Below are positions 29,129 to 61,770 of a DNA stretch of 64,000 bases, in pieces (the first letter of the stretch is position 1; every line of letters begins with the position of its first letter). A program made the translations under genes and the position numbers. Source of the stretch: Eledone cirrhosa (taxonomy: Eukaryota); contig OZ024743.1 in assembly GCA_964016885.1 (NCBI GenBank), positions 43,028,001 through 43,092,000 of the forward strand. The letters are read 5' to 3'. The notes beneath the pieces are model-generated. The model did no database searches. It was not told the origin of the DNA and saw only the letters and a program-made list of their open reading frames with translations.

Positions 29129-29296
29129 TGATAAAGTTGACTTATCAGGATAAGAGATTATTTTTCATCCTGCAAGTAAGTGGTATCTACACATATACAT
29201 AAATACATAATATATTTGACACAAACACTCATATACATTCGCACTTGAACTCAAATGCACACACGCACACATACACACACGCACACACACACGGAT

Positions 29297-34205: not shown

Positions 34206-34250
34206 TAGATAGATAGATATGTACATAGATAGATAGATAGATAGATAGAT
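34206..34250. repeat. (GATA)n tract at the 3' junction of element A
   Basis: Directly visible. Confidence 0.95.
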
Positions 34251-37200
34251 TTCTTTATTTGCCACAAGGGCGCACAAGAAAAGGGGACAATACAAAGACA
34301 TGCCGGGGATTTTACATACAGTCGTTTAAAAAATACAAAAACAAACAATTACAACAATCGAAATCCCCAATAGGGAGGAAGCGCCACAAATAGGTTGTTT
34401 AATACCCCGTCGATAGAACAACCTTCAACTCCAGGAGCGTGTTGTGCAAGTGCTCCTTTCTTCCTTTTGTTCTCGTCTTCAACCTACAGGCTTATAAGCA
34501 GAGAAGGCCTAATCACTCGGGCCATTTTCGCTCCATTCACCCACCTTTCAGTAAATTTACTGGGGTACAGTGGCTCTCTCTCCACTCTGATTCTCCTTCT
34601 AAAGTGATACTTAAAGAAGGGAATCAATTTGTATCCGGAGAGAAAGGCATCTGTCCTCATTCCTCTCAATCTCGTCCACCATATAACTTCTTTCACCATA
34701 GCCACTGTACAGAGGAAAACAGCCTCTCTTTCCTTTTTGAAAGAGGCTGGCGGTTTGATCCTTACCATAGAATCGGCAATCAACTGGATTTGTCCCATAC
34801 GAGACAGCAGTTGTTCTGCATAGTTCCACTGGTCGGTTACGCCCGGGCAGTGTACAATTGCGTGCAGGACTGTTTAAATGTCCTGCGCGCATCTTGGACA
34901 CGTCCTCTTGGAAGGATCCCTTCCGGGGCGTCCGTGCCTGTAGATATTGTCACGAACCGGTAGAGCTCCTCGGTAGCACTGCCAGGCCAGGGATCTCTGG
35001 AAGTTGTCCATAGGTCCCGGGCGGAAAGTCCTACCATACAGACTGGTGAGCTCATCGTCTTCAACGCCCAGAGTCTCTCCGAACACATCGTCGCCGTTGT
35101 ATCGTACAATCCCTCTAGAGAATGTCGAATGGAGTCTCCACTGATTGCTGCGCCCACTTGCCAGAGGATTGGAAGCGCCTGAGCGCATTCCATGTGCCAG
35201 GCGCCCATCGTTTTCCGTCTTTTCTTGACCCAGGACTGCAGCTCCGTCAGCGAGACGAGCTGTGGGAAAGCCTGTCTCACAAACGGTGCCCACACTGGTT
35301 GGGGGTCGGTGAGGAACACGTGGAGATGCCGCAACCTCAGCGTTCGTTTGCGGATCATCAGCCACGGCATTCCCATCCCTCCGTTGGAAGGGTGCTGACA
35401 GCAGACGGATCTCCTCACCAGCGGAGCCTGATTCTTCCACAGAAACTGGAAGAGCATGCGTTCCATCTTGGCAGGGGTGTTCACGGGGACAAGGGACGAC
35501 AGTCAAGCGGTAGTAGATGGCTGACGCTATGAAAGTGTTCGCCACCTCCGCTCGACCTTTCAAGGACAGTTTGCACTCTGCCCATTTCTGGGTGAAAGCA
35601 AACACCTTGGCGTGACCTCATTCAATTTTTTTTCCACCTGGAGGTCTGGACCGACCCAGACCCCGAACAATTTCACCAGTCCGTCCGTCCAGCGTCCAGC
35701 GACGCTGTCGGACGTCATCGGTTTTCCTCTCCACCTACCGAGTTGCAAACCGACAGACTTGTCCGGGTTTAGTTTGCTCCCGTCAGCGTTTCGTATCCTC
35801 TCAGTAATTGCCGATCACCCCGATTTCCGAGGTGCTCGACACCATTAGCGTTACGTCGCCGGCATAAGCCGACGCCGCTTTGCGCAGTCCAGGTTCTAGA
35901 GGGATGCACTGCAACAGTTCCAATTTCCGAAGTAGTGGCTCTAGAGTCAAATCATACAGAATGGAGGAGAGAGGGCACCCCTTGTCGATAGGAAAGCGTG
36001 ATTGCGAACGGCTCCGATAGGTAGCCGTTCATCTTGATCCTCGAGCAGATGCTGGTGTGAATCGCCTCGATCCAGGCTCTGAAAACGGGACCGAAACCGG
36101 CTGCCTTCAGAACCGCTTCCAAGTATCGATGGTCGACCCTATCGAATGCCTTAGACTGATCCAAATTGATCAGAGCCCCACCGAAGCCGGGTTTACTATC
36201 CACCCTCTCTATGATGTATCGCATGAGGTGGAAGTTGTCGTGTATGGACCTGGTAAGGATTGCACACGTTTGCGCTTTTCCAACCAGTTTCCCGACGACA
36301 ACCGCAACCTCGTCGCTAGCACCTTGGCCAAAATCTTTAACTCTGTGTTGAGCAGAGTTATGGGCCTGAAGTTGTTAATTTCGGCCCCCTTGTTCTCGAC
36401 TTTCCTGATCAGCGTTACTACGCCCTTGCCTGCAGAACTGGGAATTCTCCCGTTCTGCTGCCAATTGCAGTAGACGGCTTTGAGGACGCCAGAGAACAAG
36501 TCCGTCATGCCTATGTAAATCTCATAGGGTAGACCATCTAGACCGGGTGTCTTGCGTTTCCCGCAGCGGCCCAGAGCGTCCCGTATGTCAGTGTCCGTGA
36601 TCGGTCTTTCGCAGAACTCGGCGTCCGTGTTCGAGAGACGTGGCAGGCTGTCGAGGTATGAAGTAAAGTCAATTGCTCCGTTCTGCTCATCGTCGTTCTG
36701 CTGAAACAGTCGCGCAAAGTGCTACTGAAAGGCCGCGCACATTTGCTTTGGGTCAAGTAGCACACGTCTGTTTTGGTCTTTCAAAGACCGAATCGTGGAC
36801 TTGTTGCCACTTTTCGCCACCGCCTGTCGGACCCAGCTGACAGCTTTCGCTCCCTCGTTTCCTATAGAACGTGTTTTGCTTCTGACTACGCAGCCTTCGT
36901 GTTTCGCATCGAAGAACTGGTCCAGTGCCGTTCTCGACGCTAACACTCTAGCCGCGTTATCACTTCTAAGTGCCCCCTCTACCTTGGCAATAAGTTCTCT
37001 TTCTATTTTGTTTTTCTCTAAGGCTAACTCTCTGCTAAACCCTATCGATTCTATTCTAATTTATTTCTTGAGAGAATACCACCATTTATTGTTGTCGATG
37101 GCTCCCATTAACTGTTGCTTGACTACTCTACTTCTCCGTTCACTGTAAGATTTACGTGCCGGCAACGACACGTTCAGCTTCCTGTATCCGGGTCCTTGTC

Positions 37201-38940
37201 CATGTGTTCTATCACGGTTGACTAAGCAGACGACTAATTTGTTATCTGAATAGGCAATCATGTGCATTCGTGGACAGCTTAACATCTCCTTGTCCCTTTC
37301 TCTAATGAAGAACCTATCTAAATAGTATCTAGATGTCCCGCTGCGGTTTTCCCACGTCCACTGTGGTGCAGTCGGGAAATCCAGTCGATACCTATCGGCC
37401 AGTTGGAATTGGCCGATTAAAGTCTTGAGGCTGTTGCACCCCCCGCCCTCTACTGGGACATGCTCCCACATAGTCCCATCGTGCATTTAGGATACCATTT
37501 CAGTCCCCCACTAAAAGTTAAGAGCGCGACGTTCCCAGAAAAGACTCTAGACGCTTAAAGAAGTCTGGCCGTGATTGCGATTGCCCGATCGGGTCCAAGT
37601 GTACTTGCTGTACTTCGACGTCCAGATTCTTCCGAAACATGACAGCCACTCTCCCTCCACCTCCTGGCTGACAGAGAGCGGCGTAGATCTCAAAGTCGTC
37701 GAAGATGGTGGTTAGTTGCTGCCTGTTGTGGATCCTGGACTCGATGATGTCTATCACACCCATACCGTGTGACCTAAGGTTGTTTAAAAGTTGGCCCTGT
37801 TTTCAGGGCATCCCTAAGCCACGCACATTCACGCTTCCAACTCGTAAACTAGCCATGTTGGCGAAGAAGAGTTGGAGACAAAGGACGAAAGGTTCACTTA
37901 CCTTTTCGTTTCCTGGAGATCGAAAGAATCGTATCAATTTCTGGCTCTACTAAGCCAGCCAAGATCCACCAGATGTTAATGTTTGGCGGTATATATTTTT
38001 TTTGTGTCCTTTTTCCCATGTATGTAGGGAAAAAGGTGAATGATTTTGACACAATTGGTGTCACAGAATGTTTTTGGGCGAGAGCCTCGCTTTTAAACAG
38101 TACGGAAACACTTCCGTTCTGTTTTCCTCGTTGGAGAAAGTCGATGTTTGCTCGAATTTCCATCAAAGTATCTTCTATATATCCTTGACTAACAAATATC
38201 GGCTTTTCGTGGTATTGGATACAGTCCTAAAGTTCACTGTCCTTTGAACGAACTGTGTATTCTTTTATTTCGAGGGGTGAGTTAATTCTAAACCCACCCT
38301 CTCTTCGAAAGTTACACATTTTCTCCCTTGCTGCAGCATATCTCTTGCTTTGGAGATGTCAAGATTTATAAAATCCTGTTTTTTGTTCACTGTTTCAGCG
38401 AAAGACATTTTTTGTGTGTGGTGTTGCTGTTGTTGTTGTTGTTATCGTTGTTAGCCTCAGTGTTGGAAATCTCACTTTATGTGTAGATGTATCTGTGGAG
38501 TTGTTGATGTTGTTTTTTTCATGTGTATGTAATAGATTTAATGCATGTGTTTTCATTTTTCTCCGCTTCGATGGTAGAAATTGTACAATCTTCAAGTGGT
38601 AATATTTTCCCCCTTTGTTGACAGTCGTATCTATTGCGACATCCATAGTAGCAGAAGCAGATATAACGTTAACATCTGCCTCTTTCTCTCTCTTTTCTCT
38701 CTCGACGTTCTCTAGCGTTCTTATCGTGTTTTACAGTTGCCAAAATTTGATATTTTAAAACAATATTTAAATTAAATTTTAAAAGGGGCGAAAAATGGGG
38801 CGACAAATAGGATTACCGCCCAGCTGACAATTCAGCTTGGGGGTTAATCTACAAAATAATATTTTTTTTCAAACAATTTGTTCTGTTTTTCGTATATAAA
38901 TTAACAAAAAATCTTACCGGCGATGTTCCACGCGTCAGGC
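34251..38940 (-). mobile_element. Tx1-like L1-group retrotransposon, copy A (decayed; large internal ORF1 deletion)
   Basis: APE, RT (NFRPITLLNTE, DQSKAFDRVDH) and C-terminal CPRC pieces; ORF2 ATG at 37856, stop at 34484; ORF1 remnant ~37898-38650; ends AATAAAGAA|ATCTATCT. Confidence 0.93.
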
Positions 38941-39168
38941 AGATAGAGTGATAGATAGATAGATAGATATATTTCTTTTATTTGCCACCAGGGCATCAAA
39001 AGTGGGACAAGTACAAAGGGTGGAGTGTACACGAAAAGGCGTCCTCAATAAGGAGGAGGCAATAACAAAATATAAAAATAAAATAAAATATAACAAAAAA
39101 AAGTGTGCAACACTTTTCCTCAGGAGCACAGAGAGGGGGGTGCTCCCTCGTTCCTTCCTCTTTTCCAC

Positions 39169-42100
39169 CTACAGGCTTATGTAAAGTGAAGGCCCATTCA
39201 CACGGGCCATTCTCGCCACTTTCACCCACCTTTCATAAAAACGACTGGGGTGGAGCACCTCTCTCTCCATCCTGATCCTTCTTCCGAAATGATATCGGAA
39301 GAAACGGACCAGTTGTTGGCCAGAGAGAAAGGTGCCTGACCTCAGTCCTTTCAGACGCGTCCACCATACAACCTCTTTCGCCATGGCTATTACGCACAGA
39401 AACACCGCCTCTGCTTCATCTTTGAAGGGGGGAGGCGGCTTGATCGTTACAATAGACTCGGTGGTCAACCGGATCGGTCCCACCCTTGACAGCAGTTGTT
39501 CGACATAGCCCCACAGATCGGCTACGCCCGAGCAGTGTACCAATGCGTGTGCAACGGTTTCCTCGTCGCACACGCATCTGGGACAGATCTTTTTGGCGGG
39601 GTCCCTACCCGGGCGCCCGTGTCTGTAGAGCCTTTCTCGAACGGGTAAAGCCCCTCGGTAGCACTGCCAGGCCAGGGACTTCTGGAAGTTGTCCATAGGT
39701 CCCGGGCTGAATGTCCTACCGAACAGGCTGGCCAGTTCGTCCTCCTCCATGTCTAGGGCTTCTCCAAGGGCGTCGTCGCACCTGCTGCGTACCAGCCCTC
39801 TATAGAATGTTGCGGTGGAGACTCCAATGATAACCAGATCCGCCTGCCAGAGGGCGGTGAGCGCCTGGGCACACCCAGTGTGCCAGGCGAACAGTTTTCT
39901 CGGTCTTTGCTTGATCCAGGATTGCAGCTCGGTGAGTGAGACGAGTCTGGGAAAGGGCGTCTCACAAACGAGGCCCACACCGGTTGACCGGTGAGGAATA
40001 CGTAGAGGTGCCGTAGCCTTAATGCGTGTTTACGCATCATTAGCCACGGCATCGCCAGCCCTCCTTTCGAAGGGTGTTGACAGCAGATGGATCTCCTCAC
40101 CATAGTAGCCCGCCTCTTCCAAAGGAATTGGAAGAGTTCGCGCTCCATCTTGGTGAGGGTTTCCCTTGGGCAGGGCACTACGGTCAGGCGGTAGTAGATG
40201 ACGGACGCTATGTAGGTGTTCGCCACTTCCGCCCGACCTTTCAGGGATAGTTTGCAACTGGCCCACTTCTGGGTCAGTGCAAACACCCTGTTCGTAACAT
40301 CCGCCCAGTTTTTCTCCACCTGGAGGTCCGGTCCGAACCAGACCCCGAGCAACTTCACCGGGCCCTCCGTCCAGCGTCCGACGACGCCATCGGAGGGCAT
40401 CGGTCTGCCCCTCCACGTGCCGAGTTGCAAACCGATCGACTTGTCCCGGTTCAGCTTAGACCCTGTGAACCTTTCGTACTCCTCCAGTAAATTGCCGACC
40501 GCCTCGATTTCGGAGGCCGTCAACACCATTACTGTCACGTCATCGGCGTAGGCCGACACCGCTTTCCGCAATCCCGGTTCCAAAGGGATGCCCTGCAACA
40601 ACTCCAACTTCCGCAGTAGTGGCTCGAGAGTCAACACATACAGAAGGGAGGATAGAGGGCACCCTTGTCGGATGGACCGCGCGATTTTGAACGGCTCCGA
40701 GAGGTAGCCGTTCACCTTGACCCTAGAGCAGATGCGGCTGCTGTGCATAGCAGTGATCCAGCCCCTGAAAACGGCTCCGAAGCCTGCCGCCGCTAGCACC
40801 GCATCCAGGTAACCATGGTCGACCCTATCGAACGCCTTAGATTGATCCAAGTTGATCAGAGACCCACCAAAGCCGGGTTCGTTCCCAACCCTCTCTATGA
40901 TGTATCGCATGAGGTGGAGGTTGTCATGGATGGACCTGGACGGGATAGCGCATGTCTGCGCATCTCCCACCAGGTTTCCCACGACAAGCGCCAACCTCTT
41001 TGCTAGCACCTTGGCCAAAATCGGTAACTCTGTATTTAGCAGAGTTATGGGCCTGAAGTTACTTATTTCGTCCCCCTTGTTCTCGTCCTTCCTCACTAGC
41101 GTGACTACGCCCTTGGTCACAGTACAGGGAATTCTCCCGTTCTGTTGCCAGTTGCAGTAGACCGCCTCGAGGAGATCGGGGAACAAGTCCGGCATAGCTA
41201 GATATAATTCGTAAGAAAGACCATCGAGACCCGGGGATTTGCGTTTGCCGCATTGGCCCAGCACGTCCTCTATCTCAGCGGCCGAAATCGGCTCCTCGCA
41301 GGACTTCGCCTCCCTGTCCGAGAGGCGCGGCAGGCCGTCGAGGTATGGACCGAAGTCCACGTTCTCAACCGGCTCCCCGGCCCTCCCGAACAGTCGGGCA
41401 AAGTGCCTTTGAAAGGCCTCACACATCTGCTTAGGCTCAAGAATCGCCCGTCCATGCAGGTCTCGCAAAGACCGGATGTTGGATTTAGTTCCACTGTTGG
41501 CCTCTGTCACGCGGGCCCAGCTAACAGCTTTAGTCCCCTCGTTCCCTAGAGCACGTATTTTACTTCGGACAACGCAGCCTTCGTGCTTCGCGTCGAAAAA
41601 CTGGCTCAAAGCCGTTCTCGACGCTAACACTCTGGCCACGTCGCCGCTTCTAATAGCCTCTTCTACTCTATCTATTAGCTCCCTTTCCTTCCTATTCCTA
41701 TCCGCAGCTAGAACCTTACTAAATTCTATCGAGACTACTCTAATCTCTCTCTTTATTGATACCCACCACCTGCTGTTGACGATCGCTCCAGTCAACCGTT
41801 CCTTAACTAACCTACTAATCCGATCCCTGTAGGCTCTACTTGCCGGCAAGGACAAGTTGAGCTTCCAGTAACCGGGGCCCTGTCTATGCGTTCTATCAAG
41901 GTTGACCATGCAGGTCACCAACTTGTGGTCTGAATAGCCAACCATAGGGCATTTCTGGACAACTTAAAAAGTCCCTGTCCTTATTTCTATCTAAAAATCT
42001 ATCTAGGTACGACCTAGATGATCCGCTGCGATTTGACCAAGACCAGGTTGGCACCGTCGGAAAATCTAGTCGAAATTTATCGGCCAGGTCAAATCGGCCG

Positions 42101-42607
42101 AGTAACCCTTTGAGGCTGTTGCACCCTTCTCTATCGGGACATGCCCCTGCATAGTCCCAACGTGCATCCAGGATACCATTCCAATCCCCCACTAAAAGCA
42201 GGGAACGGGACGTCCCTAGAAAAGACTCCAGACGCTGGAAAAAGTCGGGCCGCTCAGTCCCAAAAGGGGCATATGCGGCTACCAGCCTAAAGGCTCTACC
42301 TTCACCACTGCCAAGGTCCAGAACCACCAGTCGACCCCCTGGGTCCAAGTGAACTATCTGTGTTGCAAGGCCCATATGTTTTTGCAGCAGAACGACAACC
42401 CCACCCCCACCTCCGGGCTGACAGAGAGATGCGTGCATCTCAAAGTCGTCAAAAGGTGGGGGCTAGCTGACGCATGCTGCTGATCCGGGCCTCGCAGATA
42501 ACCATCACATTTATAGATTGTGACCTGAGGTCATTTAGAAGCATTGCTTGCTTCCAAGACGAGCCCAGGCCACGCGCATTTAGACACCCTACTCTTAGCA
42601 CAGCCAT
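39169..42607 (-). pseudogene. ORF2 of copy B: APE endonuclease - reverse transcriptase - CCHC zinc finger (~1145 aa, frameshifted)
   Basis: LNARGL, ICE, GDWN, SYLDRF, SDHK; KSPGLDG, IRQGCPLS, AYADDV; CPRCVCDEETVAHALVHC. Confidence 0.95.
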
Positions 42608-42631
42608 GTTGGTGGTAAGGAGAAAAGGCAC

Positions 42632-44479
42632 TTACCTCTCTGCGTCCCGGGAAACGGGCCGCTCAATTTCCATGCTGGTTGGGGATGGGTTGTTGGGTGG
42701 GGTGGTGGTTTGTGGAAGTGAAGGGGCATCGGTGTGTTGTGGGGTTGGGGTGTTTGTGGTTGAGTGCGTGTCGGGGTGGGGTGGGGGGAATTTTTAGGAG
42801 GACGCGGTTGATTGGTTTGGCGCAAGGGGGGCCCACGTCCTCCGTGAAATTTATTTTCAGTGTTTTGTACAAGTGCATTGGGACTTTTATCATTTTTAAA
42901 TGAGGTAGTCCCACAGCAGTTTTAAAGTTAGGCCCTTCGGTTTGGACCGAAGGGTTTGCTGAAATTGTTTTCCGTAATTCTTTGTTGTCTATGTTCATGT
43001 ATGTATATTGTAAGGTCTTTTTTTGTGTAGCAGATAGTGTTGTGTGACAGGGAGGGGTGGTTTGTGTGTAGTTTGTGTTCTCTTGGGGGGGGGGGGGTTA
43101 AAGTTAACATGTGTGTCTGTGGTGCGTCTCCTCTTCTTTCTTTTTACTTGTTGGAAGGGATCTTTTTCGTCTTGCGACGAAAGGGGTTCGTCTTCCTTGT
43201 TGGGGGGGAGGGGTATGTTTTCTGGTAGTGTTTGCGGTGTGTGTGTTTTTGTATTTGTTTTGGGTGGGGAGGGATTGGGTGGGACGGTATTCTGTGTTAT
43301 TTTTTCACGTGTTTGTTGTTGTTGTTGTTGTGGTGGTGGTGGTGGGGTTGTTGGTTTTTGTTGTTGTTGTTGTTGTGGTTGTTTTTGTTGTTGTTGTTGG
43401 GGCGGTGTTGGTGTTGGTAGCAGTGTTTTTTTCTGTGTGAGCTGGGGACAGGCAGCCCTCAGGTGACCTCTATTGCCACAGAGGTAACAGGAGGGACGCC
43501 TACCCTCCACAATAATGTTGAGGTGGGTACGGTCATCCAGCATGACGCGCTCAGAGATTTGGGCGATGCGTTCTGGCCTTATTTGGGTCAGAACTTCGAT
43601 GCTCATTCCACTGAACGCGTCGCCGGATGCCTTCCCTATTGAAATGAGGTTGTCCTCGTCTAAATTGAGGAAGCCGGTTAGTAACCACCAGTAGTTTATG
43701 TTTGGGGTGATGGTGGTTATCCATATCCTATGGGTTTTTTTACCTATGTAGGTGGGGAAGAAGGTGTAGTGTGTGGACCGAATTGGCGACACAGAGTATT
43801 TTTTCGCCGCCAATTCGTCTTTCATCAATATGGATAAACTCCCATAGAGTTTATCCTTTTGTATAAAAGTGATGTCTCTCATCGCGTCTTTCAAGACTAA
43901 CTGAATTTCGGCTTGAGATGGTTGCGCTGGTTTTTTTGTTTTATTTAAAATTGTTCGGAATACGACAGTTCGTAATTCCGTCTGTTTTTTTAGTTCTGGA
44001 GGTGAATGTATAGAAAACGAACCGTTTTCGCCAAAAGATACATATTTCTTGGCTTTTTCCATCATTTCTTTTGCTTTTGAAATATCTTCAAGCACATACG
44101 CGACTGATAATTTAGCCGTTTGTGCAAAAGATATTTTGTTTTCGCTTTGGATTTTAGTATTGTTTTGTTTCTCGTCGTTTGAGTTGTTTTCATCTTTGTT
44201 GTTGTTGTTGTCTTTCTCGTTTGGTGTGTGGATACTTGTGACGTTTGTGTTGTTGTTGTTTTTGTTGTCTTTATTGTTGCTGTTGTTGTCGTTGTTGTTG
44301 TTGTTTTCAAATTCTTTTGTAGTTGTGGCTACATCTAGTGGTCGGTCAACAGGTGAAGACAATTCTTCCTCTCTCTGACCTCTGCCTTTGGCATCTGCTG
44401 CTGTGACAGTGGAAGGGGGAAGCTGTGAGTATGACTTCCCCTTTCCTTCTTTGATTGATGGTGAAGATGCTTCAGCCAT
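42632..44479 (-). pseudogene. ORF1 of copy B: gag-like protein with one CCHC zinc knuckle and low-complexity N/Q/P tracts
   Basis: ISFAQTA, GRRPSCYLCGNRGHLRAACP; C-terminus ..MEIERPVSRDAER* after frameshifts. Confidence 0.9.
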
Positions 44480-44540
44480 TTTTCTCAAAATAGGGTTTTT
44501 CGAAGTTTTTCGAAAGATAAAATGTTCACAGATAGATATG

Positions 44541-47500
44541 TTTCTTTATTAGCCACAGGGGCACAAAAGAAGGGGACAAATACAAAGGCGGAAGTTTACA
44601 TACAATAAAAACGTGTAAAATATTATCACAAATGTAATTTAAAAGTTAATCGATTTTCCCCAATAGGGGGAGGCATTTCATATGGGTAGCACATACTCCC
44701 GAAAAAATGTGCAATCCTCATCTCCAGGAGTACGAAAAGTCTGTACCCCTTTCCGCTCTTCCTCCTTTTCCTCAACCTACAGGCTAATATAGAGAGAAGG
44801 CCCATTCACTCGGGCCATTCTCGCCACTTTCACCCACCTTTCAGAAAATGTGCTGGGGTACAGCCCCTCTCTCTCCATCCTGATTCTTCTTCCAAAGTGG
44901 TATTTGAAAAAAAGAATCAGTTGTTGGCCGGAGAGAACGTTGTCTGACCTCAGCCCTTTTAACCTTGTCCACCATAAAACCTCTTTCTCCATAGCTATCA
45001 CACAAAGGAAAAGCGCCTCTCCTTTGTTTTTGAAGGAGGGTGGCGGTTTAATCATGGCAATGGACTCGGTGGTCAACCGGATTGGTCTCACTCGCGACAA
45101 TAGTCGTTTTACATAGCCCTACAGGTCGGTAACGCTCGGGCAGTGTATGAATGGGTGCGCGACGGTTTCTACGTCGCACGCCTCTCGGACAGATCTTTTT
45201 CGAAGGGTCCCTGCCCGGGCGCCCATGTCTGTAGGGTTTGTCTCGAACTAGTAGAGCTCCTCGGTAGCACTGCGAGGCCAGGGACTTTTGGGAAGTTGTC
45301 CATCGGTACCAGGCGGACGGTCCTACCGAACAGACTGGCCAGTTCGTTTTCCTCTGCGCCTAGAGCTTCTCCGAACGCGTCGTCGCACTTGCTGCGGATC
45401 AACCCTCTAAAGAATGACGAAGTGGAGTCTCCACTGATCGCCGGGTCCGCCTGCCAGAGGGCTGTGAGCGCCTGAGCACATTCGATGTGCCAGTTGCCCA
45501 TTTTCCTCGGTCTCAGCTTGACCCAGGACTGCAGCTCGGTATGCGAGACGAGTCGTTGAAGGCCCACCTCACGAACGGGGCCCACACCGGTTGTCCGGTG
45601 AGGAATAGGTATAGATGCCGCTGCCTGAGCGCGTGTTTGCGCATCGTCAGCCACGGCATCCCCAGCCTTCCGTTGGAAGGGTGTTGGCAGAAGACGGATC
45701 TTCTTACCAAAGGAGCCCGCTTCTTCCAAAGGAATTGGAAGAGCGCGCGCTCCATTTTGGTGAGCGTTTTGACTGGACAAGGCACGACGGTCAAGCGGTA
45801 GTAGATGACGGATGCTATAAAAGTGTTCGCCACCTCCGCTCGACCTTTCTAGGATAGTTTGCACTCGGCCCACTTCTGGGTGAGTGCAAACACCTTGGCC
45901 GTCATCTCGTTCCAGTTTTTCCCCACCTGGGTGTCCGGACCAAACCAGACCACGAGCAGCTTTACCGGTCCTTCCGGCCAGCCTCCGACGACACCATCGG
46001 AAGGCATCGGTTTGCATCCCCACGATCCGAGTTGCAAACCGATGGTCTTGTCCCGGTTCAGCTTCGCTCCTGTGAACGTTTCGTATTCCTTCAGTAAGGT
46101 GCCAACTTCCTCGATTTGCGAGGTACTCGACACCATTACTGCTACGTCGTCGGCGTAGGCCGACGCCGCTTTCCGCAGTCCCGGTTCCAGAGGGATGCCC
46201 TGCAATAGCTCCAACTTCCGCAGTAGTGGCTCGAGAGTCAATACGTCCAGAAGGGAGGAGAGAGGGCATGCCTGTCGAATGGATCGCGTGATATGGAACG
46301 GCTCCGAGAGGTAGCCGTTCACCTTGCCCCTTGAGCAGATGTTGCTGTTGTGCATTGCAGCAATCCAGCCCGTGAACACAGGTCCGAAGCCTGCTGCCTC
46401 GAGCACCGCATGCAGATAACGATGGCCAACCCTATCGAAAGCTTTAGACTGATCCAAATTGATCAGGGCCCCACCGAAGCCGTGTTTACACCCTACCCTC
46501 TCTATGATGTGGAGGTTGTCGTGTATGGACCTGTTCGGGATTGCGCATGTCTGCGCTTCTCCCACCAGGTTTTCGACGACAAGCGCCAACCTCTTTTCCA
46601 ACACCTTCGCCAAAATCTGTAACTCTGTGTTTAGCAGAGTTATGGGCCGGAAATTGCCTATGTCATCCCCCTTATTCTCGTTCTTCCTGACTAGTGTGAC
46701 TACGCCCCTCATCACAGAACTGGGAATTCTCCCGTTCTGCTGCCAGTTGCAGTAGACCGCTTCCAGGAGACCGGAGTACAAGTCCGGCATTGCGATGTAA
46801 AATTCGTAGGGTAGACCGTCGAGACCTGGAGATTTGCTTTAGCCGCATTGGTTCAGCGCGTCCTCTATCTCAGCGGCTGAAATCGGCTTTTCGCAGAACT
46901 TCGTCTCGCTGTCCGAGAGTCACTGTAGGCCGTCGATGTATGGACCGAAATCCATAGCTCCTAACGGCGCGCCGCCCTGCCCGAACGGTTGAGTAAAGTG
47001 CCGCTGAAGGCCGCGAACATCTGCTTCGGCTCACATATCACGCGTCCATCTTGGTCCTTTAAAGACCGAATCGTGGACTTTTTGCCACTTTTTGCCTCCG
47101 TCACCCGGGCCCAGCTAACAGCTTTGGCTCCCTCGTTACCCAGAGCACGTATTTTGCTTCTGACAACGCAGCCCTCGTGCTTTGCGTCGAAGAACTGTTC
47201 CAATGCCGTTCTCGTTGCTAGCACACTGGCTACGTTGCCACTTCTAATTGCCTCTTCTACTTTATCTATCAGTTCCTTCTCAGTCCTATTTCTATTTAAC
47301 GCTAATTATTTACTAAAAACTAACGAGTCTAATCTAACTGCCCTCTTGAGAGAGTACCACCATCTGTTGTTGACAATGGCCCCTGTCAAGTGCTGTTTAA
47401 TTAAATTGCTAATCCGTCTACTGCAGGCTTTGTATGTCGGTAACGACAAGTTCAGCTTCCAGTAGCCGGGTCCTTGTCTTTGGGTTCTATCAAGTTTGAG

Positions 47501-50330
47501 CATGCAGGTCACTAGTTTGTGATCTGAATAGGCAACCATGAACATTTGTGGAGAGCTTAACATGTCCCTATCTTTATTTCTAACTAGAACCCTATCTAGG
47601 TACGATCTAGATGTTCCCGTGCGATTAGTCCACGCCCACAGTGGCACAGTCGGAAAATCTAGTCGATATATATCGGCCAGGTCAAATCGGCCAATTAACT
47701 GTTTGAGGCTGTTACACCCCCGCTTTATCGCGACATGCTCCCACATAATTCCAACGTGCATCTAGGATTCCATTCCAGTCCCCCACTAAAAGCAAGGAGC
47801 GGGACATTCCCAGAAAAGTCTCTAGACGTTTGAAGATGTCTGGCCGCGGTGTCCCGGATGGGGCATATGTGGCCACCAGCCTGAAGGCTCCACCTTCACT
47901 ACCGTCAACGTCTAGGACCACCAGTCGACCCTCCGGGTCCAGATGTATCGTATGTGTTACGTGGTTCAGGTGCTTACGCAGCAAACGGCAGCCCCGCCCC
48001 CACCACCCGGTTGACAGAGAGATGCGTAGATCTCAAAGTCGTGGAAGATGGGGGCCAGCTGTCGCTCGCTGTGGATCCTCGACTCGCAAATGTCTACTAC
48101 ATCCATAGTGTGCGACCTGAGGTCGTGTAAGTGTTTGCCCTGTTTCCAGGCCGCGTACATTCACAAATCCAACTCTTATATTGGCGATGTTGGTGCTGAA
48201 AAGTTAAAAGAAGAGGAAAAGAAATCACTCACCTTTTCGTCTCCTGGGGACCAGGCTGTATGATTTCCATGGGGGTGTTGGAGGGGTTGTCTGGGTGGGT
48301 GGTGTTTTCAGGCAGGGTGGGAACGGAGATGTTTGGTGGGGAGGGGGTACCTGATGGGGCGGGGGTGTCTGGGATGAGGGTGGGGAAACATTTTAAAAGG
48401 ACGCGGTTAATGGGTTTAACACAAGGATTACCCTTAGGAAATTTTTCCTTTAAAGACTTATAGGTGTCCGTAAGGGACCCTAATCATCTTTAAATTAGGT
48501 CTGTCTGCACAGTTCGAAAAAGTTTTCCATTCGGTTTTCACCATAGGGTCGTGAGAGATGACCTCCATTAAAGCTTTGTTTTCACTGTTTATGTATGTGT
48601 AATGTTCTTGTTGTGTTGTGTTGTGTTGGTTTTTGTCATTTGTTCTTGTGTGAGCTTTCGTTTTGTTGTAGGTGTTTGTGTTTGGAGTGATGACGTGGTT
48701 TTGTTTTCGGGACGGGGGGTTTTTGTTTGTAATGTTTGTGTTGTTTGTGTTGGTGGTTGTATGTTTGTAATGATGTTTGTTGCTTTTTTGTTTTTGTGGT
48801 GTCTTTTCTTCTTTCTTTTCGAACGTAGAGGCTCTCCCTCATCGCCACTTGGTGATGATGAGGGGGCCTCGTCCGTTGTGGTGTCTGTGTTATTTGGAAG
48901 GGGTATGTTTTGGGGAGCTGTTGTGTTTGTGGGTGTTTTTGCAGTGGTTTTAGGTGGAGTAACGTTGGGTGGGACTGTGCTTGCAGTTTGGTTTGTTGTT
49001 CCTGTTTTGGTTCTGTTTGCGTGTTGTTGTTGTTGTTGTTGCTGCTGTTGTGGTGGTGGTTGTGTTGTTGTTTTGGGTGTTGGCAGTAGTGCCTCTTTTT
49101 TTTGCAGCTAGCTAAGGACAGTAAGCCTTCAGTTGACCGCTGCTTAAACAGTGGTAACATGAAGGCCGCCTACCCTCAACAAAAATGTTTATGTATGAAA
49201 TTCCATCCAGAGGCACACGTTGGGGTATTTTAGCTATCCGTTCTGGCCTCATTTGGATCAGAACTTCCAGGCTTGTTCCATTGAATGTGCTTCTGGAGGA
49301 CTTTCCCACTGAAATGATGGTGTCTTCATTGAAATCGATGATGCCAGTCAAAAATCCACCAGAAGTTTACATTTGGTGAAATGTTCGAAATTTTAATGTT
49401 GTGAGTTCTTTTTCCCATATATGTGGGGAAAAAGGTGTAAAGGGGGGGGGGGGGGGGCACACAATCTGCGACACAGAATATTTTTGTCCCGTCAATTGGT
49501 CTTTCATCAACACCGAAATGCTTCCAAAAAGTTTACCTTTTTGGATGAAGGCATTATCCTTCATTGGATTTTTCAGAACCAGTTCAATGTCGTTTTGGGC
49601 TAATTGGACTGGTGTTTTTGACACATTTGAATTTGTCCTAAAAATTATTGTTTTTAGGATAGGTTCTCTACGTAACTGTTGAGAAGTGATTCTGAAAGCA
49701 CCACTCTCACCAAAAGTTACATACTGCTTTGCATCACTTAACAGCTCCCTAGCATTGGAAATGTCAAGGTATGTAAACAGTTCCGTCTTTTGGACGGTTT
49801 GAGCAAAGGAAATCTTTTCCTTGTTTGTGGAGTTGTTCGTGTTGCTGTTGTTGTTGGTGGTGTGGTTGTCATCATTATTGCTGTTGTTCTTGTTATTGTT
49901 GTTGTTGTTGTTCACATTTTTCATCTTATTGGTGGTGTTGTTTGTTTTTTCGTGTGTAGTTGTGTCAATTGTTTCAATTAGAGCATTTTCTGTGTTTTTT
50001 GGTTTCTGTTGTGGGCTGTTATTTTCATCTCTTGTTGTGTAAATATTCATTTCTTTACGAAACGAAGTTTTGTTGTTGTTCGTTTTCATAGATACTTTTA
50101 TGGAAATAGAGGGAGATATCTCTCAGTCTAGCGTTGGTTGTAAGTCACACATTGTTAAAGTTAGGAACATTTTAAAAACTTGTGGGGCGAAAATTGAGAT
50201 TACCACCCAGCTGACAATTCAGCCTGAGTGTTAATCTATCAAACAATATAATTTTTTACACAATAAATTCTGTTTTTTTATGGAACATTTTACAAAAGGT
50301 TACCAGCGATTACCGCACGTCCGATACAGA
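44541..50330 (-). mobile_element. Tx1-like retrotransposon, copy C (full length, decayed)
   Basis: ORF1 pieces 48229-50089 (GRRPSCYHCLSSGQLKAYCP), ORF2 pieces 44777-48188 (AYADDV); (GATA)n on both sides. Confidence 0.95.
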
Positions 50331-50333
50331 GAC

Positions 50334-50362
50334 AGATAGATATAGATAGATAGATAGATAGG

Positions 50363-50399
<37 letters not shown>
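50334..50399. repeat. (GATA)n tract between copies C and D
   Basis: Directly visible. Confidence 0.97.
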
Positions 50400-53300
50400 T
50401 TCTTTATTTACCATAAAGGCATAAAAAGAAGGGACAAATACAAAGGGGGAGTTTACATATAATCGAGTAAAAAGGGTGTAACATGAAAATAATCGAAAAT
50501 AACCTCAAAAGGGAGGGGACGTGATGGGGGTTGCACACACCCCCGAAAAAGTGTGCAATCCTTTGCCCGGGGAGCACATGGAGAAGGTGCTCCCCTCTCC
50601 TTTACTTCTTTACCTACAGGATGGTATACAGAGAAGGCCCATTTACACGAGCCATTCTCGCCACTATCACCCACCTTTCATAAAACTGCCTGTGGCCAAG
50701 CACCTCTCTCTCCATTCTTATCCTTCTTCCGAAGTGATATCGGAAGAAGTAGACCAGACTATGGCCAGAGAGGAAGTTGCCTGACCTCAGACCTTTCAAT
50801 CGTGTCCACCAAACAACCTCTTTCAACTTGGCTATTACGCACAGAAAAACCGCCTTTGCTTCCTTTGTGAAGAGGGGAGGCGGTTTGATTGTCATCACGG
50901 ACTCGGCGGTCAATTTAATCGGCGCCACCCGCGACAGCAGTCGTTCAGCGTAGCCCCACAGATCAGCCACGCCCGGACATTGCACCAATGCGTGCGCAAC
51001 GGTTTCTTCGTGACGCACGCATCTAGGGCAAATCTTTTTTGAGGGATCCCTGCCCGGGCGCCCGTGTCTGTAGAGCCTCTCTCGAACGGGTAGAGCCCCC
51101 CGGTAGCACTGCCAGGCCAGTGACTTCTGGAAGTTGTCCATTGGTCCTGGGCCGAAAGTCCTACCGAACAGGCTGGTCAGTTCGTCTTCTTCCATGTCCA
51201 GCGACTCTCCAAGGGTGTCATCGCCCCTGCTAGCCACCAGCCCTCTATAGAATGATGAGGTGGATTCTCCACCGATGGCCTGGCCCGCTTGCCAGAGAGC
51301 CCTGAGCGCCTGTGCACACTCAGTGTGCCAGTCTCCCAGTTTTTCGGATCTTTTCTTGACCCAGGACTGTAGCTCGGTGAGCGAGACGAGTCTCGGAAAG
51401 GCTCGTTTCACGAACGGAGCCCACACCGGTTGACCAGTGAGGAATACCTGTAGGTGCCGTAGCCTTAATGCGTGCTTGAGCATCATCAACCACGGCATCC
51501 CCAGCCCTCCTTTCGAAGGTTGTTGTCAGCAGATGGATCTTCTCACCATAGGAGGGCGCTTCTTCCAAAGAAATTGGAAGAGCATGCGTTCCATGGTGGT
51601 GAGTGTTTCCTTAGGGCAAGGCACGACAGTCAGGCGGTAGTAAGTGACGGACGCTATGTAAATGTTCGCCACCTCCGCCCGGCCTTTTAGGGACAGCTTA
51701 CACTTGGCCCATTTCTGGGTTAGTGCAAACACCTTGTTCGTAACCTCGTTCCAGTTCTTTTCCACCTGGAGGTCCGGTCCAAACCAGACCCCAAGCAACT
51801 TTACCGGGCCCTCCGTCCAGTGTCCGACGACACCGTCAGGAGGCATCGGTCTGCCTCTCCACGTTCCGAGTTGCAGCCCGATGGATTTTTCCCGGTTCAG
51901 TTTCGCTCCTGACAACCTTTCGTAATCCTCCAGTAAAGTACCGATCGCCTCGATCTCCGAGTCGGTCGATACCATTGCTGTTACGTCATCGGTGTAGGCC
52001 GACACCGCTTTGCTCAATCCTGGTTCCAGGGGGATACCCTGCAACAACTCCAACTTACTCAGTAAAGGCTCGAGAGTCAATACGTACAGAAGGGAGGAGA
52101 GAGGGCACCCCTGTCGAATGGATCGTGTGATTTCGAACGGCTTCGAAAGGTAGCCGTTCACCTTGATCCTAGAACAGATGTGGTTGCTATGTAAGGCAGT
52201 GATCCAGCCTCTGAAAACAGGACCGAACCCAGCCGCCGCTAGCACCGCATCCAGGTAACCATGGTCGACCCTATCGAAGGCCTTATACTGATCCAAGTTG
52301 ATCAGGGCCCCACCGAAGCCGGGTTTGTTGCCAACCCTCTCTATGATGTATCGCATGAGGTGGAGGTTATCGTGAATGGACCTGGATGGGATAGCACATG
52401 TCTGCGCATCTCCCACCAGGCCACCCACGACAAGCGCCAACCTCTTTGCTAACACCTTGGCCAAAATCTTTAACTCTGTGTTTAGCAGGGTTATGGGCCG
52501 AAAATTATTTATACTATCTCCCTTGTTCTCGTCCTTCCTCACCAGCGTGACTACGCCCTTGGCTACAGAACAAGGAATTCTCCCGTTCTGCTGCCAATTG
52601 CAGTAGACCGCTTCGAGGAGTTCGGAGAAGAAGACCGGCATTGCTAAATAAAGTTCGTAAGGTATACCATCGAGACCTGGAGATTTGCGTCTGCTGCATT
52701 GGCTCAGCGCATCTCCGATCTCATCAGCCGAGATTGGTCCCTCGCAGGACTCTGCCTCTTCGCTCGAGAGACGCGGCAGGCCGTCGAGGTATGGACCGAA
52801 ATCCACGCCCTGCCCGGACCCTCGCCTCCCCCGAACAATTGGGCAAAGTGCCTTTGAAAGGCCTCGCACATCTGCTTAGGCTCCCGGATCACCCGTCCAT
52901 CTTCGTCTTGCAACGACCGGATGGTGGATCGATTTCCACTCTTAGCTTCTGTCACGCGGGCCCAGCCAACGGCTTTGGCCCCCTCATTACCTAGAGCACG
53001 TATTTTACTTCGAATGACGCAGCCTTCGTGCTTTGCATCGAAAAACTAGTTCAAGGCCGTCCTCGATGCCAGCACTCTGGCCACATCTTCGCTCTTGATT
53101 GCCTCTTCTAATTTACCTGTTAATTCTTTCTCGTTTCTATTCCTATCGGCAGCTAACATCTTGCTATAACTTATTGATTCTGTTCTAATCTCTCTTTTGA
53201 GAGATGCCCACCATCGGTTGTTGACGATTGCACCCGTCAACCTCTCCCTAACTAATCTGCTAATCCGGTTTCTGTAAGTCTCTTTTGCCGGTAAAAGACA

Positions 53301-56215
53301 AATTAAGTTTCCAGTAACCGGGACCCTGTTTATGTATTTTCTCGAGATTGACTACGCAGGTCACTAATTTGTGATCCGTGTAGCCAACCGTGCGCATTTC
53401 TGGACAGCTTAATATGTCCCTATCCTTTCTTCTAACTAAGAATCTATCTAAGTACGATCTAGATTGACCACTGTGGTTTCTCCAAGTCTAGGTAGGCACA
53501 GTTGGAAAATCTAGTCGATATCTATCGACCAAGTTAAAACGGTCGAGTAACCCCTTGAGGCTGTTACACCCCAATCTATTAGGACATGCTCCTGCATAGT
53601 CCCAACGTGCATCTAGGATGTCATTCCAATCCCCCGCTAGAAGCAGGGAATGCGACGTTCCCAGAAAAGTCTCCAAACGCTGGAAGAAGTCGGGCCGTTC
53701 AGCTCCGAAAGGGGAGTAGACGGCGACCAGTCTCAAGGCCGCACTTTCACTACTGCCAACGTCTAGCACCAACAAACGACCCTCCGGGTCCGAGTGCACA
53801 ACCTGTACGGCAAGACCCAAGTGTTTTTGCAGCAGTACGACAACCCCACCCCCACCTCCAGGTGGACAGAGAGATGCATGCACCTCAAAGTCATCGAAGG
53901 TGGGAGCCAGCTGCCGCACGACGCTGATTCGAGTCTCACAGATAACCATTACATTTATACTACATGACCTGAGGTCATTTAGAAGCTTTTCTTGCTTCCA
54001 AGTTGAGCCAAGGCCACGTGCATTCAAACATCCTACTCTTAACACATCCATGTGGGCGGCAGAGCCAAAGGAGAGTGTAGAGACCTACCTTTCCGCTTCC
54101 CGGGGTTCGGGTTGCACGACTTCCATGGGGTCGGGGGTGTTGGGTGAAGGGGTGTCTTGTGGTGGTGTGGGGTCGTCAGTGTGTGGTGGGGTTGGGGTGT
54201 TTGGAGTTGTGTTGGGGAGGGGAAGGGGAGGAGGAAAGCTTTTTAGTAGGACGCGGTTTATGGGTTTGACAGAGGTTGGTCCTACGTCCTCCTTAAAATC
54301 CTTTTTTAGTTTCTGGTAGAGGTTCATTGGGTATCTTTATTAATTTTAAATGTGGGTAGTTTTCTGAAGAAACAAAGTTTACACCTTCGGTTTGTACCGA
54401 AGGATTATTGTATATGAGTTCATTTAATTTATTATTGTTTCTGTTGATGTAAGTATAGTGTAATGTCTTTTTTTCGGATGGTGTGAGTGTTTCGAAGAGG
54501 CGAGGGGCAGGTTTGGTTTTGTTTGTTGCTGGAGGGGTGTTTTCTGTTTTGTTGGATTGTGTTGAGATTTGGGTGGGGGTTGTTTGGCTTTGTGTGTTTT
54601 GCACATGTTTTCTTTTTTTCCTTTTAATCTGTCTGAAGGACTCCGTTTCTTCCTCCGAATTCGTTGGGTTATCTTCAGTGCTGGAGGGAAGAGGTATGTT
54701 TGCTGGTAATGTTTCCGTGTTGGTTTTCTTTGTGGGGGAGATGGATGTCACTATGTTAGACTGTGTTGTGTGTAGTGTCTGCGGTGGTTGTGTTGTTTTA
54801 TTGAGTGAGAGGTTGGGTGGGCCTGTATTTTGTTTTGGGGTAATGTGTTGTGACTGTTTGTGTTGTGGTGGTGGTGTGGTTTTACTGAGGGACGGGTTGG
54901 GTGGGACTAAGTTTTGTTGTTTGTTTATCTGTTGTGGTGGTGGTGGCGGAGCTGGTGTTGGGAGCAGGGTTTTCTTTTTGTTGAGTTGGGGACAAGCGGC
55001 CTTCAGGTGCCCTCTGCCTGCACAGATATGGCAGGACGGCTTTCTCCCCTCCACGCTAATGTGTATATACCCGTGGCCCTCTAATAGGATTCTGTCGGGT
55101 ATTTGGGCGATGCGTTCAGGCTTCATTTGCACTACCAGCTCTATACCTGTTCCACTGAACGCATTGCCTGTGGTTTTCCCAATGGAAATCACGTTGTCAT
55201 TCACTGGATCGATGAAGCCAGCTATGAGCCAGCAGTAGTCCACATCTGGCATCATTGCATCCAGCCATATGCGTTGAGTTCTTTTACCCATATAAGATGG
55301 ATAAAAGGTAAAAAATTTCGAACGAATCGGTGACAAAGCACATTTTTTTGCCGCCGATTCGTTCTTCATGATAATTGCTAGGCTTCCATACAGTCTGTCT
55401 TTTCTTATGAAAGTGGTTTCATTAACTACTTCTGTGAGTACTGTTTTGATATCTGCTTGAGAAGGCTGTTCAGGTTTATTTGTACTGTTGTTGATGGTGC
55501 GGAACTTGACCGTTCGGCTTTCAATGTCTTTGGTGAATTCTTGAGGCATTTTTACCGATAAAATACCATTCTCTCCTTCACTTATGTATTGTTTGGCGTC
55601 TGTGATTCTTCGTGCCACATCTGAAATATTTTCCGGTATATAAGTCAAAGATTTCTTTGTTGTCTGTGCAAATGAAATCTTGTCGTCTGCTTTGCTTTCT
55701 GTTATGGTGTTATTTTCAAATGTTATTTTTGTGTTTGTTGTGTCTTTGTTTGTGTTATTAGTATTGTCATGCAATTTTTCAAATTTTTTTTTTCGTTGTT
55801 GGAATCCATGTCCAGATTTGTGTTTTCGTCATTTTTTTTCTCCGCAGATTCGTCTGTTTTTATTTTAATTTTTCCTTTCTTCTCTATGACGTTAGTTGGG
55901 AAGGAAGGGGGGACTAAAGCGTGCGAGCTTACAACTCTTACCGCTGTCCCCCCACCACTATTTTCGTTCGCTGCGTTTAACATTTCTGTTAGACGATTGA
56001 CATTTTTTTGTCACAATTTTTTTTTTAAAACAGGTTTTTCACCTCTAGGAGGGGTAAAGATGAGCTGACCCACCGCCTGACAGTTCAGACGGGGGGTCAA
56101 GCTACACAATTGTATCAAAATTAAATTTGAACTCACAAAATTTCCGCAATAAATTTGAACAAAACTTCTGCGCGAAGTGAATTACATCCACACTGTAGAA
56201 CAGACGACAGCTAGA
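50400..56215 (-). mobile_element. Tx1-like retrotransposon, copy D (full length, few lesions)
   Basis: ORF1 54085-55983 (GRKPSCHICAGRGHLKAACP), ORF2 50614-54051 (AYTDDV, CPRCVRHEETVAHALVQC); (GATA)n on both sides. Confidence 0.96.
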
Positions 56216-56217
56216 TT

Positions 56218-56218
<1 letters not shown>

Positions 56219-56312
<94 letters not shown>
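56219..56312. repeat. (GATA)~23 tract at the 5' junction of copy D
   Basis: Directly visible, pure repeat. Confidence 0.98.
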
Positions 56313-61439: not shown

Positions 61440-61770
61440 AATTGGAACAGTATTTTAGACGGTAGCTCGGACTGTGTGGGAGTTGCTGATAGGAGAGAGA
61501 GGAATACAAAAAGCCTCAGCTACTTGCTCAGCCATTTCCAACTGTCTGACAGGTACCGACTAGATTTCACTAATGCGCCAGCGTGGACCTGGCGCAACCG
61601 CATAGTGTCATCTAGATCGTATATAGATGTTTTTCATTTGGTCAATAGATAAGAATAGTATAGGTTGTCCACAATTTCAAACGGTCGCTTATTCAGATCA
61701 CAAGTTTATGATCTGTATGGTCGACCGAGATAAGACATGCAGGTTAGGACTTGGTAACTGGAAGCTAGAA
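61440..61770 (+). mobile_element. Isolated APE fragment of the same Tx1-like family
   Basis: WNSILD..FQLSDRYRLDFTNAPAWTWRN..SRSYID, CPQ..VAYSDHK..GNWKL, collinear with copies A-D. Confidence 0.85.

What the first reader, a model, noticed from the sequence alone, without database searches (positions are those of the whole stretch)
34206..56312. Four diverged Tx1-like retrotransposons stacked head-to-tail in one (GATA)n microsatellite: candidate (TCTA)n-specific family
Seen: four co-oriented elements with GATA repeats at all five boundaries (34206, 38941, 44530, 50334, 56219) and no other DNA between them. Each 3' end reads AATAAA(A)GAAA straight into (TCTA)-type repeat with no poly(A). The tract 5' of copy D has no element upstream of it, so the repeat is not simply an element tail. 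Established: Tx1-clade elements are often sequence-specific, including microsatellite targets (Kibi at (TC)n, Koshi at (TTC)n). Inference: repeated, independent, strand-specific insertion into a single microsatellite has built a 22-kb array. I do not know of a described (GATA)n-specific Tx1 family, but I cannot search for one.
Basis: partly seen in the sequence, partly recalled or inferred. Interest (0 to 1): 0.85.

Follow-up and report, generated by a model that had tools for sequence, protein, structure and literature searches.

The report
GATA-repeat-targeting LINE retrotransposons, stacked
Four broken copies of related jumping genes (LINE retrotransposons) lie head to tail in one GATA repeat, and their relatives elsewhere in the genome mostly sit in GATA-type repeats on one strand and in one phase, so these elements likely cut and insert into GATA repeats by preference, a known strategy with a repeat target that the literature searches here did not find described.

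Summary
Confirmed. Four co-oriented L1-group LINEs (ORF1 zinc knuckle; ORF2 APE-RT-zf), 74-81% identical to each other, fill 34250-56217 between single-copy flanks, separated only by TCTA-type repeats. Each belongs to its own dispersed family; B and D are young, with intact copies. The repeat is a target, not a tail. Of 40 D copies picked without regard to flanks, 30 have two or more TCTA units 5' and 34 have them 3', none on the other strand (background 0.45%); 37 of 68 5'-truncated copies do too. Target-site duplications (mostly 17-24 bp, starting at TAT) place the inferred nick at GATA^GATA. None of 122 copies has poly(A). Specificity is relaxed: some copies sit in (TA)n or degenerate sites. 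Stacking is common (26 of 40 D copies abut another copy). It works like Kibi/Koshi. Tx1 membership is likely but untested, as no named references were obtained. No GATA-targeting LINE appeared in the paper searches; Repbase and Dfam were not available. The scan noted the same thing in another genome (e1-9514738). Verdict: new variant of a known kind, moderate interest.

The parts
34206..34249 (.). Interrupted (GATA)n tract, 3' flank of copy A; left remnant of the target microsatellite
   Evidence: neighbouring flank single-copy
34250..38941 (-). LINE copy A: full 5' end, about 1 kb missing inside ORF1, ORF2 region 37856-34487 with frameshifts and stops; 93% to a family copy elsewhere
38942..38971 (.). 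B/A spacer: terminal TA of B, then TATCTA-type units and a variant stretch
38972..44529 (-). LINE copy B: 5'-truncated by 167 nt, ORF1 open (42995-44545 stop to stop, CCHC knuckle), ORF2 region 42607-39172 frameshifted; 96% to an intact family copy (L260)
44530..44540 (.). C/B spacer: terminal CA of C plus TATCTATCT (about two units); junction unique among 40 scored candidates
44541..50325 (-). LINE copy C: near full length, ORF2 region 48179-44780 with many stops and frameshifts; 94-95% to the best 3' matches
50326..50398 (.). D/C spacer: about 18 interrupted TCTA units
50399..56217 (-). LINE copy D: full length, youngest; ORF1 region 55828-54293, ORF2 region 54051-50617 (APE, RT, zf-RVT) with frameshifts and stops; 97% to an intact copy (L161), 3' end 100% identical to 40 of 40 scored copies
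56218..56312 (.). Perfect (GATA)23 tract, 5' flank of D with no element beyond; right part of the target microsatellite
   Evidence: neighbouring flank single-copy

Best explanation
The array is four separate insertions of related L1-group (likely Tx1-clade) LINE families into one (GATA)n microsatellite, which these families likely target by nicking its GATA strand at GATA^GATA and priming reverse transcription there. Shown: two-ORF LINE anatomy; TCTA context at both junctions, on one strand and in one phase; target-site duplications of mostly 17-24 bp that begin at TAT; no poly(A); no extra repeat units added at off-target sites. Inferred: the ORF2 APE domain makes the first nick; the freed 3' end (...GATA-OH) likely pairs with UAUC just after the element's last two bases in a read-through RNA, at a fixed register; second-strand cleavage about 19 bp away duplicates the target. 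Each insertion leaves TCTA units at both junctions, so an occupied tract stays a target and later families stack head to tail in the same orientation (older A and C, then B and D, by divergence from family copies).
For: Domains: RVT_1, Exo_endo_phos, zf-RVT, weak zf-CCHC; best solved relative human L1 ORF2p, E 1.5e-50 against 2.4e-20 for R2; APE catalytic motifs present in intact B and D ORF2. Forty D copies found with a 151-nt 3'UTR query that excludes the terminus and repeat: two or more TCTA units within 40 nt at 30 of 40 5' and 34 of 40 3' junctions, 0 of 40 on the opposite strand, background 0.45%; 24 of 24 full-length copies. 5' ends selected by similarity: D 27 of 29, C 24 of 29. Truncated copies (break beyond nt 2300): 37 of 68, and 30 of 58 with no family terminus within 70 nt upstream, which cannot be a head or a neighbour's tail. 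Locus-specific TSDs: 16 of 40 in D against a shuffled mean of 2.1, max 7 of 200; 28 of 122 over four families against 3.2, max 8 of 100. 116 of 122 copies read TAT two bases after GAAA, 101 TATCT, 0 poly(A). In 14 of 18 informative copies ending CA or TA, identity with the 5' flank stops exactly at TAT, fixing the nick phase. Upstream of the nick, TATC in 14 of 28 (counted) against 47 of 626 genomic TATCT sites. AT tracts outnumber GATA tracts 241 to 11 in 200 kb, yet 7 of 118 classified 3' flanks are (TA)n and 87 TCTA. Known precedent: Tx1L endonuclease nicks almost only its target (PMC1950540, passages); Kibi, Koshi and crocodilian Tx1 target microsatellites (PMC4494074, passages).
Against: Specificity is incomplete: 31 of 68 truncated copies lack two TCTA units at the 5' junction; among D, 6 of 16 non-full-length copies have them against 24 of 24 full-length (Fisher p 9e-6), two of the 16 being interrupted rather than truncated copies and four (L154, L163, L169, L174) having no TSD. 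Young B copies ending CT went into (TA)n in 4 of 7. A, B and C heads begin with a TCTC/TCTA-like leader, so part of the 5' repeat at their full-length copies may come from the RNA. No biochemistry; no RNA data. Samples are top-scoring hits, not a full census, and include tandem-duplicated pairs (L152/L153, L165/L166).
Confidence: 0.82

Rival explanations
1. Site choice comes mainly from RNA-DNA pairing: a weakly specific endonuclease nicks widely, and only nicks whose 3' end pairs with UAUCU at the RNA end are extended.
For: Positions +1, +3, +5 of the TSD are T in all 28 informative sites (the search required the first three bases to match between both copies of the TSD); several sites have unrelated upstream sequence (L076, L250, L118, L232); (TA)n insertions occur.
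Against: Sequence upstream of the nick, which the RNA 3' end cannot read, is enriched: C at -1 in 71% against 25% of genomic TATCT sites, TATC in 14 of 28 against 7.5%. The two mechanisms may act together.
Confidence: 0.12
2. TCTA is an element tail made by slippage of the reverse transcriptase; the 5' repeats are tails of neighbours or chance.
For: Every 3' end runs into TAT/TCTA without poly(A), as in repeat-tailed CR1, L2 or RTE elements (recalled); 18 of 40 D copies do have a family copy directly upstream.
Against: 30 of 58 truncated copies without a family terminus nearby have 5' TCTA; at off-target sites (L075, L076, L092, L118, L232, L250) the element end runs straight into the TSD with no added units; the tract 5' of D borders single-copy DNA.
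Confidence: 0.03
3. The array arose by tandem duplication, or by joint transposition of several elements as one unit.
For: Repeated identical units exist elsewhere (truncated-B plus D units in L152/L153; L013/L014).
Against: The four copies are 74-81% identical to each other but 93-97% to dispersed family copies; the C/B junction matched in full only here; both flanks are single-copy.
Confidence: 0.02
4. Insertion is random and copies merely survive in repeat-rich neutral DNA.
For: The genome is rich in microsatellites.
Against: Strand and phase are fixed (0 of 40 opposite strand; 1 of 68); the youngest family shows the pattern most clearly; far commoner AT and AC tracts are mostly passed over.
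Confidence: 0.01

Closest known systems
Kibi ((TC)n) and Koshi ((TTC)n) of teleosts, and crocodilian Tx1 families on (TTCC)n/(TTTC)n (PMC4494074, PMC3812793; passages seen)
   Same: APE-type LINE inserting into a pyrimidine-rich microsatellite strand; target choice ascribed to the endonuclease
   Different: Target here is (TATC)n/(GATA)n, in neither list; invertebrate-type genome (inferred); relation to these families not tested; preference relaxed towards (TA)n
Tx1L of Xenopus, and Tx1-Mar/SINEU-3 of crocodilians (PMC1950540, PMC4494074; passages seen)
   Same: Sequence-specific APE LINE; sequential tandem insertion around a TSD is described for SINEU-3; D also recurs at one end of a fold-back repeat
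   Different: Those target DNA transposons; the predicted targeting hairpin loop here has nine residues between its anchors as in L1 (alignment), while the paper gives eleven for Tx1L
Waldo (ACAY), Mino (AC), Dong (TAA), Togen (TG) microsatellite-specific non-LTR elements (PMC3812793, PMC4640811; passages seen)
   Same: Same strategy of inserting into microsatellites
   Different: Other clades (R1, R4, NeSL-related: partly recalled) and other repeat units
Human LINE-1
   Same: Two ORFs with a short spacer, APE-RT-C-terminal zinc finger, TPRT with TSD; closest solved structure
   Different: L1 has a poly(A) tail and a loose TTTT/AA target; this has no poly(A), a CCHC-knuckle ORF1 and a TATC^TAT target
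L1-Tx1 families of Octopus vulgaris (PMC13282606; first third of text, passages and the one supplement held)
   Same: 13 recently active L1-Tx1 families, 421 near-full-length insertions, 80 families in all, in a genome of like size
   Different: The paper has no target analysis ('target' occurs 0 times in the main text); sequences could not be compared, so these families may already be in its library without the specificity noted

Membership tests
L1 group of non-LTR retrotransposons (L1 + Tx1) | ORF2 with N-terminal APE, RT and C-terminal CCHC/zf-RVT; separate ORF1 | tested here: met
L1 group of non-LTR retrotransposons (L1 + Tx1) | RT closer to L1 than to other clades | tested here: met
   L1 ORF2p E 1.5e-50 over residues 8-855, R2 2.4e-20; only L1 and R2 were among the 10 hits, so other clades were not compared directly
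L1 group of non-LTR retrotransposons (L1 + Tx1) | Target-site duplications and frequent 5' truncation (TPRT) | tested here: met
Tx1 clade | RT groups with named Tx1 elements (Tx1L, Keno, Kibi, Koshi) | tested here: inconclusive
   Two homologue searches gave no named Tx1 reference apart from one automatic fungal label; the quick tree of 64 rows shows A, B and D with P0001 as one group, sister to P0002-P0006, but has no labelled anchor
Tx1 clade | ORF1 with CCHC zinc knuckle rather than the vertebrate L1 type (feature recalled) | tested here: met
   zf-CCHC E 0.0029, below Pfam's cut-off; atlas neighbours carry zf-CCHC, scores 0.90-0.92
Microsatellite-specific non-LTR element (criterion of PMC4494074: one sequence type in over 20% of flanks) | Same repeat in more than 20% of flanks | tested here: met
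   30 of 40 and 34 of 40; 37 of 68 truncated copies
Microsatellite-specific non-LTR element (criterion of PMC4494074: one sequence type in over 20% of flanks) | Endonuclease cleaves the repeat specifically | not testable with these tools
   needs a nicking assay; inferred from upstream context
Kibi/Koshi lineage | Target (TC)n or (TTC)n | tested here: not met
   target is TATC^TATCT; (TC)n flanks are rare (for example L132, L276)
Kibi/Koshi lineage | Phylogenetic sister relation to Kibi/Koshi | not testable with these tools
   no reference sequences obtained

The most novel reading that the evidence does not exclude
A still-active invertebrate L1-group lineage has gained GATA-microsatellite targeting independently of Kibi/Koshi and without the long Tx1L-type loop, kept it through a radiation to 74-81% identity, and is now relaxing towards (TA)n in one young sub-lineage. 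That would be an undescribed target with intact ORFs in hand: a natural series for dissecting how endonuclease read-out and RNA priming set site choice, and a candidate tool for insertion into GATA repeats.
Probability: 0.3. Interest if true: 0.62.

Novelty: new variant of a known kind. Interest (0 to 1): 0.42.

Why it matters
It adds a repeat unit, GATA/TATC, to the short list of microsatellites targeted by APE-type LINEs; a review seen here calls the mechanism of such targeting not well understood (PMC3812793, passage). Here the nick phase and TSD length can be read from the genome, and 14 of 24 full-length D copies keep an open ORF2, so the test is within reach. It explains clustering of LINEs in this genome as sequence-driven stacking in GATA tracts, and warns that GATA microsatellite markers here may carry multi-kb insertions. 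It changes no principle: microsatellite targeting and tandem stacking are known.

Tried and rejected
Rfam scan of 34000-56500 at E up to 1 for a 5' ribozyme or other RNA family: 0 matches. Intron idea: the 5'UTRs of A, B and C hold a 70-nt GTAAG/GTAAC...TAG stretch, but D lacks the GT and no copy lacking the stretch was seen among the fetched 5' ends (8 A, 14 B, 68 D alignments); left open. Sequencing runs: no RNA holder listed; contigs of four runs laid on a B copy gave no usable information on splicing or RNA ends, and their depth was not used as a copy number. Empty allele: contigs covering the left flank stop at the repeat, and two other organisms gave no cover. Single-sequence AlphaFold model of the APE domain had mean pLDDT 34 and was discarded; no fold search was run. 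Metagenome scan gave 3 distant loci at 24-34%, uninformative. Named Tx1 references were not obtained; the careful tree did not finish, the quick tree was read, and its row labelled C_L223 is in fact a D copy. The fourth row of the alignment covered the wrong stretch and was not used; the 'stacked' flag missed many cases and was not used. Look-ups of earlier findings by place and by sequence were empty.
Full report
Observation. Between them lie four elements on the minus strand: A 34250-38941, B 38972-44529, C 44541-50325, D 50399-56217, 74-81% identical over ORF2. The C/B spacer is only about two units, and B lacks the first 167 nt of a full-length B. All four 3' ends read AATAAA(A)GAAA, two bases (TC, TA, CA, TC), then TATCT; none has poly(A). 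The flanks outside the array each match once in the 3.0-Gb genome. The window is G000:C4:43028001-43092000. The organism was not determined; genome size and microsatellite richness resemble an octopus (inference).

Identity. Pfam finds RVT_1, Exo_endo_phos and zf-RVT in ORF2 pieces and a weak zf-CCHC in ORF1. All four window copies have broken ORF2s. Natural copies elsewhere are intact: L161 (family D) has ORF1 626 aa and ORF2 1145 aa in one frame with a short spacer; of 24 full-length D copies, 13 have the 1156-codon ORF2 frame and one has it fused to ORF1; family B has intact copies too (L260, L262, L263, L266), 84% identical to D in ORF2. The closest solved protein is human L1 ORF2p (E 1.5e-50; R2 2.4e-20), with APE and RT motifs in place. 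Database homologues fall from 67% (one) to 38-45% (five) and under 40% for the rest, nearly all unnamed. A second search with an 11-row profile gave 269 proteins, and none of the 120 listed was a named Tx1. The quick tree has no labelled anchor. So L1-group membership is shown; Tx1 membership is likely (CCHC ORF1, zf-RVT, site preference; features partly recalled) but untested.

Each copy is its own family. The D 3' end matches 40 of 40 scored places at 100% (968 and 952 candidates); C best matches are 94-95% (2215 candidates), A 95-97% (962); B has 1453 candidates and the window copy is 96% to L260. These counts are lower bounds. The C/B junction matched in full only in the window among 40 scored candidates. 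Duplication or joint transposition does not explain this array, though repeated identical units exist elsewhere (L152/L153, L013/L014).

Target or tail. I fetched all 40 D hits (query excludes the terminus and repeat; all on contig C1, 26-272 Mb) and 20 evenly spaced 10-kb controls. Two or more TCTA units lie within 40 nt of 30 of 40 5' junctions and 34 of 40 3' junctions, with 0 of 40 on the opposite strand; the control rate is 181 of 39,840 windows. Full-length copies score 24 of 24, the others 6 of 16; two of these 16 are interrupted copies, not truncations, and two pairs among the 40 are tandem neighbours. 5' ends picked by similarity give D 27 of 29 and C 24 of 29. Across families, 182 fetched loci reduced to 126 copies with both junctions in view (duplicates, unresolved ends and copies with identical 60-nt 3' flanks dropped, which removes some pure-repeat cases), and 4 more with mis-set ends were dropped, leaving 122. 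Of 68 truncated beyond nt 2300, 37 have 5' TCTA (A 7/12, B 8/15, C 18/30, D 4/11; opposite strand 1), and 30 of 58 that have no family terminus within 70 nt upstream. A truncated copy has no head, so this repeat is the target's. The 31 misses include (TA)n sites, degenerate sites with a clear TSD, and sites with no TSD, which may be target deletions or later rearrangements (inference).

Nick site and TSD. Locus-specific duplications were found in 16 of 40 D copies (shuffled mean 2.1, max 7) and, with a stricter start rule, in 28 of 122 copies (mean 3.2, max 8); 17 of the 28 are 17-24 bp, five of them 19. Pure-repeat sites cannot show a TSD, so this subset leans to imperfect targets. 116 of 122 copies read TAT two bases after GAAA and 101 read TATCT; none has six As there. 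In 14 of 18 informative copies whose last two bases are CA or TA, identity to the 5' flank stops at TAT. That puts the first nick at TATC^TATCT, that is GATA^GATA on the other strand (inferred from TPRT). At off-target sites (L075, L076, L092, L118, L232, L250) no repeat units are added between element and TSD, so there is no synthesised tail and priming is at a fixed register. Upstream of the nick, C is at -1 in 71% and TATC precedes in 14 of 28, against 25% and 7.5% of 626 genomic TATCT sites; this points to DNA read-out beyond RNA pairing. AT tracts are 22 times as many as GATA tracts (241 to 11 in 200 kb), yet 87 of 118 classified 3' flanks are TCTA, 7 are (TA)n and the rest other; four of the seven belong to young B copies ending in CT. 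Heads of A, B and C start with a TCTC/TCTA-like leader, so some 5' repeat at their full-length copies may be RNA-derived; D copies with informative TSDs show only 0-5 extra bases.

Mechanism. Shown: anatomy, strand, phase, TSD, absence of poly(A). Inferred: APE nick at GATA^GATA; a read-through RNA whose UAUC pairs with the primer (AATAAA lies only about six bases before the end, so cleavage would fall in the downstream repeat; established poly(A)-site spacing, recalled); second nick about 19 bp away. Each event regenerates target at both junctions, so stacks grow: 18 of 40 D copies have a family copy directly upstream, 18 directly downstream, 26 on at least one side. The window's four-copy stack is a long case of the normal pattern.

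Comparison with print. PMC4494074 (passages; supplements not readable) lists Kibi (TC)n, Koshi (TTC)n, crocodilian Tx1 on (TTCC)n/(TTTC)n, and sequential tandem SINEU-3 insertions; the target labels in its Fig. 3 were not visible and may bear on novelty. PMC3812793 (passages) lists ACAY, AC, TC, TTC and TAA targets; PMC4640811 (passages) adds (TG)n. PMC1950540 (passages) shows Tx1L endonuclease nicking almost only its target. PMC13282606 (first third of the text, passages, one supplement) counts 13 active L1-Tx1 families in O. vulgaris with no target analysis. PMC8869645 and PMC6136364 (passages) added nothing. Kojima and Fujiwara 2004 was not seen. Ten searches (listings only unless named above) returned no GATA-targeting LINE; the bracketed form (GATA)n cannot be searched, and Repbase, Dfam and most subscription papers are outside the library, so 'not described' is weak.

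Verdict. A real, genome-wide GATA-microsatellite preference of several L1-group LINE families, two of them young. It works like Kibi/Koshi with a different repeat unit. New variant of a known kind; interest 0.42.

Noticed in passing
L041, L055, L171, L176, L178 (5' of D copies); also L185, L250: A fold-back (MITE-like) repeat of about 400 bp whose one end runs into TATC/TA units is the direct 5' neighbour of five D copies: a recurrent secondary target, recalling Tx1L in Tx1D.
   Followed up: partly
window 5' ends of A (about 38850-38920) and C (about 50235-50305); L260 head: 5'UTRs of A, B and C hold an intron-like GTAAG/GTAAC...TAG stretch of about 70 nt, followed by a predicted hairpin that A, B and D form with different sequences; D lacks the GT.
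   Followed up: partly
3' ends of A-D, just before AATAAA: All four have GCC-five bases-GGY directly before AATAAA, a possible small stem-loop for RT recognition (read).
   Followed up: no
L110, L116, L117, L266 and other B copies ending CT: A young B sub-lineage appears to have relaxed its target: 4 of 7 have (TA)n 3' flanks against 0 of 18 for copies ending CA.
   Followed up: partly
L152/L153 (C1 near 271.08 Mb), L013/L014, L165/L166: Head-to-tail repeats of the same unit (truncated B plus D, or D plus D with the same junction) suggest tandem duplication adds to stacks elsewhere.
   Followed up: no
L156: One D copy has ORF1 and ORF2 fused in a 1802-codon frame through loss of the ORF1 stop.
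   Followed up: no
L168, L186: D copies interrupted by later insertions of about 1.8 kb and 370 bp with short duplications.
   Followed up: no
window 58201-58758 (-): DDE_3 transposase remnant of Tc1/mariner type, E 5.8e-10.
   Followed up: no
window 18492-19565, 19756-20690, 28491-29130: Near-perfect tandem repeats of 467 bp (two arrays either side of a TA tract) and 319 bp.
   Followed up: no
window 61554-61766: Short diverged fragment (66-68%) related to the APE region of these LINEs, outside the array.
   Followed up: no
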